A stretch of DNA of 64,000 nucleotides from an uncultured virus (IMG/VR IMGVR_UViG_3300001605_000010) (IMGVR_UViG_3300001605_000010:1-64000); one strand, 5' to 3'. Positions 253-2,114 are shown, counted from the first letter of the stretch. Notes: generated by a model from the letters alone, not told the origin. Numbers and translations: made by a program.

Positions 253-470
253 TCTTCAACTCCGAAATGTTTCAGTATGAGGTTGCTCACAACGATCTCT
301 CCATCAGTTGTGACTTCGCCTGTGGCTTTGAAAATTCAAGCGAGCACACTCACGCACCACAGTCTCGATCAAACTCAACTAGGTGTCGAGGTTTGAAATC
401 GGTAGACAGGATCACCGTCGCTGTCGAGGAAGCCTTGTTTNGTCAGTAATTCAATGATTTTCTCGTTCAT
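249..470 (-). pseudogene. Small hypothetical phage protein with compensating frameshifts (likely read errors)
   Basis: Starts MNEKIIELL, middle LIETVVRECA is in another frame, ends LILKHFGVEE*; N base at 441; N-terminus resembles that of the gene at 1..109. Confidence 0.4.
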
Positions 471-811
471 GCTGTTTTCCTTTCACGCACATCGGTATTC
501 AAGTTGGGCCGCAGTTCACGGATCAAGGCCCTCTCCAGTTGGTGTGCAGCCGACTTACCTCTGACCACTGCCAGGATGGTATAGCAGAAGCTCTCAGGAC
601 CACGACCACGCAAGGCTTCATACAAGGCCCAGGATTTGTCCTCTGAACGGCTACGGTACAGATGCTTGTTCATACGCACCCGAACTGACTTGAGCACCGT
701 GCTTTCGGTCTTGGCAGTGACGCCAACATAAAAGTCAGAACCGCTCATGATCTTGTAGATGATGTGTGTACGATCTGCTCGCTTTTTACGGGGTGCTTTT
801 TTAGTGTCCAT
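467..811 (-). CDS. GIY-YIG family endonuclease
   Basis: IIYKI...FYVGVT (GIY-YIG), R-x-x-x-H, and late E..LIRELRPNLN motifs; start moved to ATG 811, just after the promoter. Confidence 0.8.
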   Translation of the reverse strand: MDTKKAPRKKRADRTHIIYKIMSGSDFYVGVTAKTESTVLKSVRVRMNKHLYRSRSEDKSWALYEALRGRGPESFCYTILAVVRGKSAAHQLERALIRELRPNLNTDVRERKTA

Positions 812-885: not shown

Positions 886-912
886 AAAAACCCTGACAAA
901 ATCAGGGTTTTT
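886..912. terminator. Bidirectional rho-independent terminator
   Basis: AAAAA-CCCTGA-caaaa-TCAGGG-TTTTT immediately after the stop of 912..1160. Confidence 0.8.
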
Positions 913-1160
913 CACACCATTTCGATGTTGTTTGTACGCAACACTTCTTTGGCCTGTTGCATCACTCGGTTGACATCATTTTGCAGGGTTTCAAACACGA
1001 AATCACCACTGACAAAGGCACATCTGGGTTGCGGGGGGAATTTTAGTGCACCACGTTCGGTGCGCTCAGTGACGTTGAATGCCACTATGATACGGTACGT
1101 TTCTTTGTTTTTATTGTAAACGAGTTTGGCTTTTGCTGTGCTTGCTGTGAGGATATCCAT
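912..1160 (-). CDS. Hypothetical early protein
   Basis: 82-aa ORF with AGGAG RBS, its own promoter and a terminator. Confidence 0.75.
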   Translation of the reverse strand: MDILTASTAKAKLVYNKNKETYRIIVAFNVTERTERGALKFPPQPRCAFVSGDFVFETLQNDVNRVMQQAKEVLRTNNIEMV

Positions 1161-1190
1161 TTCAGCTCCTTTTTCTTATATTGAACATAC

Positions 1191-1219
1191 ATTATAGCCG
1201 AAAAAGGATTATTGGTCAA
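1191..1219 (-). promoter_or_regulatory. Sigma70-type early promoter
   Basis: TTGACC-17 nt-TATAAT. Confidence 0.85.
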
Positions 1220-1239
1220 TCAAACATTGTAGCATAAAA

Positions 1240-1401
1240 ACAACACAAGGAACGGCTGAGTTTTCAGCGAATTTTGGCTTGCCCCGCTAAGGGCACCCAG
1301 CCGGCCACCACAGTTATATCAGGACCCTACCACGGCAAGGTGAACCCGCATAGTTGATGCGTCCATCAACGCTACCTGTATCAGCCGTTTCTTGTATTGT
1401 T
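1240..1401 (-). ncRNA. Candidate ~160-nt structured non-coding RNA of unknown family
   Basis: 20-nt terminal arms (1381-1400 and 1240-1259) pair; internal hairpins; begins ~7 nt after a consensus -10 box; no credible ORF. Confidence 0.65.
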
Positions 1402-1407
1402 TCAATT

Positions 1408-1436
1408 ATTATAGCAAAATAGGATTTTCTGGTCAA
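1408..1436 (-). promoter_or_regulatory. Sigma70-type early promoter driving the candidate ncRNA
   Basis: TTGACC-17 nt-TATAAT. Confidence 0.85.
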
Positions 1437-1828
1437 CCGATAGAATCCAGCCATTTTTTGAGGTCGCCATACATGGTAGCCATCATGGCTTCTCTGCTGC
1501 CAAAAAAAACGATCCTGCGGGTCTTTTTGCGGGCATTGAAATCCAAGTAGTAAGGCCATTCCAGTTTGCGATCCAGATCCAGGATCATGCGTTTGTCGAT
1601 CCTGGCTCGCCAGGCACCATTGGTTTCCTGTTCTGACAGATCCAGATGCCAAGATTCGATCTTCAATACATCGTGCATGATCTGGTAACCATGATGTGTG
1701 AGTCGCATGCCACCGTCACGGCGTATGTTGGCCCACCAGGTGATCATGGCCTGATCCGGACTTTCTTGATATTGATCGGGGATCGAACCGCGTAGTTGCG
1801 TGACTATGCTAAGTTTTCGATTTGGCAT
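1433..1828 (-). CDS. Hypothetical protein
   Basis: ORF in operon; likely start MPNRKLSIV. Confidence 0.65.
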   Translation of the reverse strand: MPNRKLSIVTQLRGSIPDQYQESPDQAMITWWANIRRDGGMRLTHHGYQIMHDVLKIESWHLDLSEQETNGAWRARIDKRMILDLDRKLEWPYYLDFNARKKTRRIVFFGSREAMMATMYGDLKKWLDSIG

Positions 1829-2114
1829 CGGGAAACACAGTCTCCCCTTGGGTAAGCAACACCACCGAAAACTTGTCAGTTTTGAACTGCTGATTAAGTT
1901 TGCGTGCCAAGTTGATGGCATGCCCGGGATTTGAAAACGAAACTTTTTTGTACTTGGGTCCCGGATACTGTACCAGCATGTTGGCAGTTTTGAGATTGAT
2001 GGGAGCGTTGTTGTAAAACACCGCGTAGATGCCCTCGGCTGCTAATACCTGTTCGGTTTTATAGGTCTGGCGGTCGGTTTGCTCAACTAGTACTTTGGGT
2101 TTGGGTCTCGACAT
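1809..2114 (-). CDS. Hypothetical phage protein
   Basis: MSRPKPKVL...GPKYKKVSFSNPGHA; GAGGA RBS and TAAATA upstream. Confidence 0.75.
   Translation of the reverse strand: MSRPKPKVLVEQTDRQTYKTEQVLAAEGIYAVFYNNAPINLKTANMLVQYPGPKYKKVSFSNPGHAINLARKLNQQFKTDKFSVVLLTQGETVFPDAKSKT

What the first reader, a model, noticed from the sequence alone, without database searches (positions are those of the whole stretch)
1240..1436. Unannotated ~160-nt structured RNA with a dedicated consensus early promoter
Seen: TTGACC-17-TATAAT (1436-1408) places +1 at about 1401, exactly where a 20-nt arm (ACAATACAAGAAACGGCTGA) begins. It pairs with TCAGCCGTTCCTTGTGTTGT (1259-1240) with one G-U and one mismatch. Inside, CAGG/CCTG encloses the hairpins GTTGATG-gacg-CATCAAC and ACCTTGCC/GGTAGGGT. 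There is also a GGCT..GCCC/GGGG..AGCC hairpin and a possible pseudoknot GCGGGTT/AATTCGC. No ORF fits, and the next gene has its own promoter. Inference: a stand-alone early phage ncRNA (ribozyme, protein sponge, anti-defence decoy, or retron-like RNA with a1/a2 arms). It matches no family I recognise.
Basis: partly seen in the sequence, partly recalled or inferred. Interest (0 to 1): 0.75.

Follow-up and report, generated by a model that had tools for sequence, protein, structure and literature searches.

The report
Stand-alone phage tRNA-island RNA gene
A giant lake phage carries, as a small separate gene with its own start and stop signals, a tightly folded RNA that related phages keep among their transfer-RNA genes; the RNA family is widespread, is in no catalogue searched, and its job is unknown.

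Summary
On the minus strand, a near-consensus promoter (1436-1408) is followed by a ~168-nt RNA (1403-1236). Its ends form a 22-bp stem (P1), and the last strand runs into UUUUU. It folds far better than shuffles (z -5.2) and matches nothing in Rfam 15.

It is not an orphan. A homolog in a metagenome contig (L052) and a third found by covariance model led to a motif scan of IMG/VR. That scan returned 70 loci, of which 69 match the model. On 48 distinct sequences, 98.3% of cells in 43 pairs are paired (34-41% when slid), and 31 pairs show compensatory changes.

The family is a four-helix RNA with a possible loop pseudoknot. It normally sits inside tRNA islands of giant phages: 64 of 69 loci have tRNAs within 1.5 kb, and in 48 a tRNA starts at its 3' end. 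The window copy is an atypical, diverged "solo" version. No tRNA lies in the 119-kb record, it has its own promoter, and P1 is remodelled to end in a U-tract.

Relatives carry tRNA-Glu plus tRNA-Cys, an empty P1 hairpin, or remnants in the same slot.

Function is unknown. I favour a trans-acting stable RNA. Earlier notes of this scan appear to have met this family, or a very close one, on other DNA.

The parts
1408..1436 (-). Sigma-70-type early promoter: -35 TTGACC (1436-1431), 17-nt spacer with TG at 1416-1415, -10 TATAAT (1413-1408). The stop codon of the upstream gene overlaps the -35.
   Evidence: The homologous promoter drives tRNA-Glu plus tRNA-Cys in L056, L057 and L082.
1236..1403 (-). 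The RNA gene, about 168 nt, from the predicted +1 (G1403 to A1400) to the end of the U-run.
   Evidence: Model R2 scores it 109.9 bits, E 6e-27, but the window is one of the 48 training rows.
1381..1403 (-). P1, 5' strand (GAAACAAUACAAGAAACGGCUGA).
   Evidence: 100% identical in L052, and 22 of 22 pairs are kept. P1 covaries across the family, with 18 of 20 pairs showing double changes.
1371..1380 (-). J1/2 junction UACAGGUAGC (family consensus A(A/C)AGGUAUC).
1353..1370 (-). P2 hairpin: 7 bp plus GACG loop. GGACGC is conserved.
   Evidence: 5 of 7 pairs are changed on both sides against L052. In the family, 5 of 7 pairs are compensatory.
1320..1348 (-). P3 hairpin (CGGG...CCUG). The apical GCCG (1336-1333) is the candidate 5' strand of a pseudoknot. 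The window copy departs from the family's apical X-C-GGCCG-G-X'.
   Evidence: The natural variant at 1341, 1343 and 1344 is.
1311..1319 (-). Junction AUAUAACUG (UAACUG kept in every member).
   Evidence: UAACUG was part of the search pattern, so its constancy among the 70 IMG/VR loci is by construction.
1299..1304 (-). CCGGCU. The CGGC (1303-1300) is the candidate 3' strand of the pseudoknot with the P3 loop.
   Evidence: Both strands are constant, so there is no covariation for or against.
1276..1298 (-). P4 hairpin: outer GGU/GCC, inner GCCC/GGGC, loop UUAGCG, 3' bulge AA.
   Evidence: All 3 outer pairs are compensatory in the family. The window row is shifted by one column in A5.
1260..1275 (-). 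J4/1 junction AAAAUUCGCUGAAAAC (family CUAAAUU...).
1236..1259 (-). P1, 3' strand, ending in UUUUU (1240-1236). With P1 it has the form of an intrinsic terminator.
   Evidence: The same arm plus U-run closes a plain 17-bp hairpin in L012, L013 and L053-55.

Best explanation
Shown:
- Window 1403-1236 (minus strand) encodes a structured RNA. It is a diverged member of an uncatalogued family of roughly 145-170-nt RNAs.
- The family has a closing stem P1 of about 18-23 bp and three hairpins, P2, P3 and P4, around a junction of conserved single strands.
- In giant freshwater phages this RNA normally lies inside the tRNA gene island. Its 3' end usually touches the next tRNA, most often tRNA-Asp.
- In the window's lineage the island has shrunk. 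Relatives have tRNA-Glu plus tRNA-Cys, only the empty P1 hairpin, or mere remnants behind the same promoter. The window and L052 keep the RNA alone.

Inferred:
- The RNA is now a self-contained gene. The early promoter starts transcription at the first base of P1. P1's 3' strand has been remodelled to end in U5, so P1 plus the U-run stops transcription and seals both RNA ends in a duplex, making a stable RNA.
- P1 is the generic ~20-bp clamp or processing stalk of these islands. It is a likely RNase III-type cutting site and a point of recombination. The 120-nt core is the working part.
- The core is kept, with compensatory changes, where no tRNA is left to process. I therefore take it to act in trans as a stable RNA that binds a protein, phage or host, through its constant loops and junction. 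Those are the GACG loop, the NNAGCN loop and the GAC bulge. I place it most likely in the tRNA-centred conflict between phage and host.
- The partner is unknown.
For: Promoter, fold and lack of ORF.

Homologs:
- L052 has identical arms, and P2 is rebuilt by 5 double changes.
- G004 was found by model R1 at 68 bits, in 2 of 21 records searched, one being the window's own.
- The motif scan gave 70 IMG/VR loci, and 69 matched R1 at E<=0.01: 67 full-length and 2 cut by a contig end.
- One more member lies in a bacterial MAG contig, between tRNA-Glu and tRNA-Asp.

Structure:
- 43 pairs; 98.3% of 2032 cells are paired, against 34-41% when slid.
- 31 pairs carry compensatory changes.
- The covariation score is 0.634, against at most 0.108 when slid. 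0 of 500 shuffles reach it.

Context:
- 64 of 69 loci have tRNAs within 1.5 kb, all on the same strand.
- In 48 of 69 a tRNA starts at the RNA's 3' end (33 of these are tRNA-Asp).
- In 13 of 69 a tRNA ends less than 60 nt upstream.

Slot series.

Solo status: no tRNA in the own record.

Clamp behaviour:
- Arms are 100% identical between the window and L052, while the cores are 48% identical. Each core is closer to other members.
- The empty clamp in L012 is shown.
- A second clamp with a 48-nt top lies in front of tRNA-Cys in L093.

Natural variation: in runs X7 and X16, two U-G pairs of P3 become C-G.

Other contexts: near-identical copies occur in another sequence context in X5.
Against: - No experiment shows a transcript. 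The one RNA-library run (X16) is represented only by contigs, which also run 21 nt past the U-tract, and DNA may be present in that library.
- The two solo copies score much lower on the family model: 110 and 89 bits against about 180. They also depart at near-constant positions (GCCGU for GCCGG; CCGGCU or GCGGCU for UCGGCU). They could therefore be decaying relics.
- A 22-bp stem closing 125 nt is an unusual terminator and was not called by the simple scan.
- Nothing identifies a partner. Trans action rests on one argument, retention without tRNAs.
- The motifs GGACGC, CUAU, UAACUG and CGGCU are constant among the 70 loci by construction of the search pattern.
- The record is only 35% complete, so tRNAs may lie elsewhere in the genome.
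Confidence: 0.55

Rival explanations
1. Cis-acting spacer. The whole element is a processing and insulating module of multi-tRNA transcripts: a clamp cut by RNase III, plus a structured spacer that keeps neighbouring tRNAs folding apart. In the window it would be a leftover whose only present use is as the terminator of the upstream operon.
For: The usual position is exactly between tRNAs, with 0-7 nt spacers. Clamps with other tops occur in the same islands. The empty clamp in L012 sits in the same slot. Solo copies score lower on the family model.
Against: A spacer needs no 120-nt core with a fixed 35-nt P3 segment and constant loops. The window and L052 keep P2 and P4 through compensatory changes with no tRNA beside them. 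P1 was re-tailored to start at +1 and to end in a U-run. L133, L134 and L121 also lack tRNAs within 1.5 kb.
Confidence: 0.22
2. Self-cleaving ribozyme that helps mature the flanking tRNAs, like theta (HDV-like) ribozymes but of a new class, cutting at or near its own boundary.
For: The pseudoknot-capable compact fold has many constant unpaired bases. Its boundary coincides with the tRNA 5' end in 48 of 69 loci. There is precedent for ribozymes beside phage tRNAs (PMC10879173, abstract and section 7 read).
Against: No Rfam ribozyme family matches, even at E<=10 locally. The HDV-like strand order does not fit (my inspection). RNase P already explains a cut at the tRNA 5' end. Solo copies have nothing to release.
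Confidence: 0.07
3. DNA-level element. The 23-bp inverted repeats would be the ends of a small mobile insertion, or a protein-binding palindrome split by an insertion, and the RNA fold would be incidental.
For: There is a clean indel. L012 joins the two arms exactly where the window has the 129-nt core. Arms are 100% conserved while cores differ. A GIY-YIG-like gene lies next door, as segB does in T4's tRNA region (PMC2330249, abstract seen in listing; PMC13096335, abstract and section 10 read).
Against: Across the family, P1 changes sequence but keeps pairing: 18 of 20 pairs carry double changes, including G-U pairs, which only make sense in RNA. The core's hairpins covary too. No second copy is in the 119-kb record.
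Confidence: 0.06
4. Retron-like msr/msd RNA with a1/a2 arms, or a Y-RNA-like partner of a Ro protein.
For: There is a long terminal stem formed by the 5' and 3' ends. A constant AGC lies in the P4 loop.
Against: No reverse transcriptase (PF00078) is in the own record. No TROVE/Ro domain is in 0 of 5 family-bearing records, 4 of them at least 95% complete. No Rfam match. The constant AGC sits in a hairpin loop, not next to the terminal stem.
Confidence: 0.02

Closest known systems
Phage T4 stable RNAs rnaC and rnaD (species 1 and 2), annotated in AF158101 at 70908-71171
   Same: They are non-tRNA stable RNAs of unknown function, encoded in a phage tRNA cluster beside a GIY-YIG endonuclease gene (segB). 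The window has a GIY-YIG-like gene 390 nt downstream of its RNA.
   Different: Neither family model matches the T4 tRNA region: R1 with filters off, and R2 at E<=1. Sizes and folds differ. The window copy has its own promoter and terminator.
ROOL and GOLLD RNAs
   Same: They are orphan structured RNAs of phages and prophages, 'often near tRNA islands', of unknown function (PMC12286853, passages read).
   Different: They are roughly 580 to over 800 nt, with unrelated folds. Neither Rfam model matches here. Whether this RNA forms multimers is untested.
Theta (minimal HDV-like) ribozymes beside phage tRNAs (PMC10879173)
   Same: They are small structured RNAs that abut phage tRNA genes.
   Different: Theta ribozymes lie 3' of the tRNA, with the cleavage site at its 3' end, and occur mostly in gut phages (section 7). 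This family usually lies 5' of a tRNA, is two to three times larger, and shows no HDV-like strand order or Rfam match.
RNase III processing stalks of rRNA operons and phage early transcripts
   Same: P1 is a ~20-bp duplex made from sequences flanking a stable RNA, and it covaries. This works-like comparison rests on established knowledge and on earlier scan notes e1-5338259 and e1-6210778.
   Different: No cleavage was tested. In the window, P1 also carries the U-tract of a terminator and starts at +1.
PeSL cassettes of T4-type phages (PMC2839356, PMC4122927)
   Same: Repeated strong sigma-70-like early promoters are paired with stem-loops, flanking exchangeable small cargo in plastic genome regions. 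Here there are 12 family promoters and a slot whose cargo differs between relatives.
   Different: The cargo here is an RNA gene, and the stem encloses the cargo rather than preceding the promoter. The phages are only distantly T4-like.

Membership tests
Uncatalogued tRNA-island RNA family defined here (models R1, R2) | Closing stem P1 of about 18-23 bp made by the 5' and 3' ends | tested here: met
   22 pairs, 1403-1381 with 1259-1237. The family P1 covaries.
Uncatalogued tRNA-island RNA family defined here (models R1, R2) | P2 of 7 bp with a GACG loop, and junction motifs CUAU, UAACUG, CGGCU and AAAU in order, with a 35-nt interval between CUAU and UAACUG | tested here: met
   R2 scores 109.9 bits, E 6e-27. 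The window was one of R2's 48 training rows.
Uncatalogued tRNA-island RNA family defined here (models R1, R2) | P3 apical loop GGCCG closed by C-G and a covarying pair | tested here: not met
   The window has UUGCCGUGG. Pair 70/76 is U-U and G76 is U. GCCG itself is kept.
Uncatalogued tRNA-island RNA family defined here (models R1, R2) | Location inside a tRNA island, with the 3' end touching a tRNA | tested here: not met
   No tRNA is in the window or the 119-kb record. This is a typical context of the family, not a structural requirement. L052, L133, L134 and L121 also lack it.
Retron ncRNA (msr-msd) | Adjacent reverse transcriptase gene | tested here: not met
   PF00078 gives 0 matches in the own record, which is 35% complete. 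The neighbours are a 131-aa and an 82-aa protein without Pfam or PHROG families.
Retron ncRNA (msr-msd) | Branching G directly beside the a2 arm, and a long msd hairpin | tested here: inconclusive
   No constant G lies next to P1. The constant AGC is in the P4 loop. Branching itself cannot be tested with these tools.
Any Rfam 15 family (including HDV-like, hammerhead, twister, pistol, hatchet, tRNA, tmRNA, Y RNA/YrlA, phage pRNA, ROOL, GOLLD) | Match to the family covariance model | tested here: not met
   0 matches at gathering score in the window. Nothing falls on the RNA at E<=10 in 1100-1550. Nothing falls on a typical member at E<=1 or on L052.
Y RNA / YrlA | Co-occurring Ro (TROVE) protein gene | tested here: not met
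   PF05731 is found in 0 of 5 family-bearing phage records. A host-encoded Ro cannot be excluded.
T4 rnaC / rnaD | Detectable likeness of sequence and structure | tested here: not met
   No hit on L164 2909-3172 with R1 (filters off) or R2.
Intrinsic terminator | Stable stem directly followed by a U-run | tested here: met
   P1 ends at 1237 and UUUUU lies at 1240-1236. L052 has U7. Termination itself is not testable with these tools.

The most novel reading that the evidence does not exclude
The ~120-nt core would be a compact functional RNA machine of giant phages, of one of two kinds. It could be a decoy that traps a host tRNA-cutting defence enzyme or a tRNA-handling factor. Or it could be a new ribozyme class that cuts at its own 3' boundary to free tRNA 5' ends without RNase P. 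The window's lineage would show it working as an independent, promoter-driven gene after all tRNAs were lost.
Probability: 0.12. Interest if true: 0.85.

Novelty: new variant of a known kind. Interest (0 to 1): 0.62.

Why it matters
Phage tRNA islands are turning out to hold many folded RNAs of unknown job, such as T4 rnaC/rnaD, ROOL and GOLLD.

This finding adds a small, strongly covarying family with at least 70 loci in IMG/VR. It is absent from Rfam 15 and from 50,697 GenBank phage records by blastn.

It also supplies a natural experiment. In one lineage the RNA survives as a free-standing gene after the tRNAs are gone. That argues the RNA has a job of its own and is not only a spacer.

At about 150 nt it is small enough for in-vitro probing, cleavage tests and pull-downs. 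The clamp-and-cargo behaviour (identical arms, unrelated or missing cores) shows how such RNAs are shuffled between phages.

Tried and rejected
- Rfam at gathering score and at permissive E-values: nothing.
- ARAGORN on the window: no tRNA or tmRNA.
- blastn against GenBank phages with the window RNA and with a typical member: no match.
- IMG/VR exact-word scans:
  - a 28-mer of P3: 0 hits;
  - the P2 18-mer: 3 chance hits in coding DNA;
  - a 19-mer of the 5' arm: 2 chance hits inside an RT-like gene;
  - arms with a free gap: 7 chance hits.
- blastn of five large related records: nothing. The covariance model later found one of these, G004.
- Small peptide reading: the frame is not conserved in L052.
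- tRNA mimicry: a 9-nt likeness between P2 and the D-arm of the neighbouring tRNA-Asp in L093 was noticed. No tRNA model matches, so I treat it as chance.
- HDV-like fold, hammerhead core motifs, SRP-like and RNase-P-like likenesses were considered by eye from recalled consensus features. I dropped them for lack of any model match.
- P3-loop palindrome as a self-kissing site: the palindrome is not kept in members with CAGCCGG, CUGCCGG or CCGCCGG, whereas GCCGG is.
- Runs: X6 covers only part of the RNA. No habitat claim is made.
- L145 (pattern hit without model match) and L166 (Acidobacteriota contig, no model match) are taken as chance matches.
- Searches of our earlier findings by place and by the window's own sequence gave nothing.

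Full report
**1. The observation**

The window's genes run on the minus strand.

- At 1436-1408 lies TTGACC-17-TATAAT, 11 of 12 to consensus, with TG before the -10.
- The exact form TTGACC-N16-18-TATAAT occurs 4 times in 64 kb, against 0.03 expected.
- A slightly looser form occurs 12 times in the 119-kb record, always on the minus strand. The other family promoters that I inspected, at 847 and 1219, drive ORFs. I did not check the rest.
- From about 1403, the RNA strand pairs its first 23 bases with 1259-1237: 22 pairs and one A-C mismatch. It ends in UUUUU at 1240-1236.
- The 176-nt stretch folds at -72.1 kcal/mol, against -52.2 +/- 3.8 for shuffles, z -5.2.
- No tRNA or tmRNA was found. 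No Rfam family matches at gathering score or at E<=10 locally.
- The record is an IMG/VR virus contig, 35% complete by CheckV, which suggests a genome of roughly 340 kb. It has a T4-type DNA polymerase and an FtsH-like protease.

**2. The slot in relatives**

I used the upstream gene as a handle. It was listed as 162 aa, but its true start is probably the later MPNRKL, because the first ~30 codons carry stops in relatives. This fetched 34 IMG/VR loci and 32 metagenome loci.

Behind the same promoter, relatives carry different cargo:

| Loci | Cargo behind the promoter |
|---|---|
| L056, L057, L082 | tRNA-Glu(ttc) plus tRNA-Cys(gca) |
| L061 | an unrelated ~190-nt non-coding insert |
| L012, L013, L053-55 | the two arms of P1 joined directly, a 17-bp hairpin with U-run |
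| L005, L006, L051, L007, L009, L010, L014, L015 | only remnants of the 3' arm |
| L016 type | a small unrelated hairpin |

Other points:
- The slot is followed in most relatives by a small GIY-YIG-like gene, window 467-808. Its matches are PHROG homing endonucleases at E 6e-6, and Pfam GIY-YIG at 19.9 bits, below the cut-off.
- The window has a further insertion: promoter 1219-1191, an 82-aa ORF, and a terminator.
- On a tree of the upstream protein, the window, L052 and L012 fall in three different groups. That tree has 32 distinct rows, and its N-terminal columns are partly out of frame. The distribution is therefore patchy.

**3. Homologs**

- L052:921-1092 is a true homolog. Its arms, the next 6 bases and the last 25 bases are identical to the window's, while the interior is 48% identical. 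P2 is rebuilt from GUUGAUG/CAUCAAC to GCCUUGG/CCAAGGC with the GACG loop kept: 5 of 7 pairs are changed on both sides. L052 also folds well, z -5.1.
- A model from these two (R1) was run over 21 related virus records. It found one more copy in a 343-kb, 99%-complete record: G004:99702-99856, 68 bits. There P1 has a different sequence but still pairs, and the RNA sits in a tRNA cluster with its 3' end on tRNA-Asp.
- From the three sequences I wrote the pattern GGACGC-N5-CTAT-N30-40-TAACTG-N2-10-CGGCT. It found 70 IMG/VR loci. 69 match R1 at E<=0.01; 67 cover the whole model and 2 are cut by a contig end. Many loci lie on contigs of 200-364 kb.
- The same pattern found 2 loci in 185,579 species-representative genomes. 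One is a true member (R2 178.6 bits), lying between tRNA-Glu and tRNA-Asp on a 23-kb contig of a MAG. The other is chance.
- GenBank phages hold nothing similar by blastn.

**4. Structure**

- The 71 hits gave 53 distinct sequences. I aligned 48 of them (A5).
- I left out 5 rows. L127, L144, L113 and L107 differ, by eye, from an included row only or mainly in the flanks. L104 is truncated.
- RNAalifold gave 40 pairs, 30 of them with compensatory changes.
- I curated a structure of 43 pairs: P1 20, P2 7, P3 8, P4 4, pseudoknot 4. On it:
  - 98.3% of 2032 cells are paired, against 34-41% when the partner is slid by 1-3 columns.
  - 31 pairs have double changes, against 11-20 when slid.
  - The covariation score is 0.634, against at most 0.108 when slid, and 0 of 500 shuffles reach it.
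- P1, P2, the middle and apical helices of P3, and P4 are each supported.
- The candidate pseudoknot, P3-loop GCCG with CGGC downstream, never varies, so it is neither supported nor refuted. Its 3' strand was in the search pattern. Its 5' strand was not, and that strand is kept in 46-47 of 48 rows.

Caveat: GGACGC, CUAU, UAACUG and CGGCU are constant in these loci by construction of the pattern. The real family is probably wider.

**5. Context**

Of 69 loci (not all independent, since several contigs share identical sequence):
- 64 have at least one tRNA within the 1.5 kb held on each side, always on the RNA's strand.
- In 48, a tRNA starts within a few bases of the model's 3' end: Asp 33, Lys 6, Glu 2, Cys 2, Leu 2, Tyr 1, His 1, Met 1.
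- In 13, a tRNA ends less than 60 nt upstream: Glu 9, Tyr 4.

Exceptions are the window, L052, and L133, L134 and L121. In those last three, a promoter lies ~100 nt upstream and an ORF follows. One contig holds two different members 1.5 kb apart (L150 and L157).

**6. What is special about the window copy**

- It has no tRNA neighbour, and the 119-kb record has none.
- It has a dedicated promoter whose +1 coincides with P1's first base.
- P1's polarity is reversed compared with array copies. Arrays begin UUUUU... and end ...AAAAA. The solo copies begin GAAAC and end in a U-run.
- It is diverged: R2 gives 110 bits, against about 180 for array copies.
- Natural variants exist:
  - Run X5 holds the RNA with 1 difference, in another downstream context without the 82-aa ORF.
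- Runs X7 and X16 show + strand 1341 T>G, 1343 A>G and 1344 A>G. In the RNA, UUCA becomes CCCC.
  - X7 also holds a contig with 28 differences across 1263-1454, whose letters I could not see.
- X16 is an RNA library, but only contigs were laid, and they run 21 nt beyond the U-tract. This is not proof of a transcript.

**7. The clamp**

- The arms are identical in the window and L052, although their cores are each closer to other family members (62-64% and 52-58%) than to one another (48%).
- L012 has the arms with no core.
- In L093, a second ~18-bp stem with a 48-nt top lies directly before tRNA-Cys.
- This fits two earlier, unchecked notes of this scan (e1-5338259, e1-6210778). They describe ~20-bp clamps with exchangeable tops in freshwater-phage tRNA islands and liken them to RNase III stalks.
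- I tested only the pairing, the exchange of tops and the empty form, not cleavage.
- The neighbouring GIY-YIG-like gene recalls T4 segB in the T4 tRNA region. SegB drives preferential inheritance of that region (PMC2330249, abstract in the listing), and segB homologs co-localise with tRNAs (PMC13096335, abstract and section 10). Endonuclease-triggered gene conversion could therefore explain homogenised arms and a variable slot. This is inference.
- The repeated promoter-plus-stem-loop layout resembles PeSL cassettes (PMC2839356, passages; PMC4122927, abstract).

**8. Function**

Nothing identifies it directly.

- Retron: no reverse transcriptase.
- Y RNA: no Ro gene in 0 of 5 records.
- T4 rnaC/rnaD: no model match.
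- Known ribozymes: no Rfam match.
- Retention as a free-standing gene, with compensatory evolution, after loss of the tRNAs argues for a job of its own. This is why I rank a trans-acting stable RNA above a mere processing spacer, with modest confidence.

**9. Novelty**

- My literature searches found T4 rnaC/D, ROOL and GOLLD, theta ribozymes and PeSLs, but no description of this family.
- These searches cover open-access text only and prove no absence.
- Earlier notes of this scan (e1-5784061, e1-5833470) share 16 and 13 of 43 short words with a typical member. They describe a 'knotted orphan RNA' beside tRNA-Asp in more than a hundred lake phages.
- Those notes do not appear when the neighbouring downstream region is used as the query. 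They therefore probably concern this family or a very close one. I could not see their sequences.

Noticed in passing
window 912-1219 (minus strand): A promoter (1219-1191), an 82-aa ORF without any Pfam or PHROG family, and a hairpin with T-run (~905-880) form an extra cassette. It is absent from L052 and from the X5 variant. Homologs of the ORF lie elsewhere in related records (L039-L046).
   Followed up: partly
window 467-808 (minus strand): A small GIY-YIG-like protein (PHROG homing endonuclease E 6e-6; Pfam 19.9 bits, below the cut-off) is conserved next to the variable slot in most relatives. This recalls segB in T4's tRNA region.
   Followed up: partly
L061:1475-1660: A different ~190-nt non-coding insert with a long-range stem (GCGCACCGG/CCGGUGUGC) sits behind the same promoter. 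Fold z is -3.4, and there is no Rfam match.
   Followed up: partly
L093:1656-1861 (minus); also upstream of the RNA in L150, L151 and L120: A conserved non-tRNA stretch (…GGGAAGCGGGUGGAAGG…) lies directly upstream of the RNA in several islands. It is probably another uncatalogued RNA. Only weak Rfam noise falls on it (tmRNA_permuted, 17.9 bits, E 0.84).
   Followed up: no
L093:1103-1194 (minus): An ~18-bp clamp stem with a 48-nt top lies directly in front of tRNA-Cys. It was picked up by the P1 part of model R2.
   Followed up: no
L150 and L157 (one IMG/VR contig, about 1.5 kb apart): Two different members of the family, with different P1 types, lie in one tRNA island.
   Followed up: no
L083, L084 (1501-1519): The 19-mer of the window's 5' arm and junction recurs by chance inside a reverse-transcriptase-like coding sequence of unrelated viral contigs.
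   Followed up: partly
L165 (contig of a MAG labelled Haliscomenobacter): A typical family member between tRNA-Glu and tRNA-Asp lies on a 23-kb contig binned with a bacterial genome. It is either a mis-binned phage contig or a host hint.
   Followed up: no
window 1433-1921 (minus strand): The upstream ORF listed as 162 aa probably starts later, at MPNRKL (about 131 aa). The first ~30 codons carry stop codons in most relatives and overlap the preceding gene.
   Followed up: partly
L110 and L113 (both ends of one 364-kb contig with terminal repeats): The RNA lies at the very ends of a contig classed as having direct terminal repeats, so it is in or next to the repeat.
   Followed up: no
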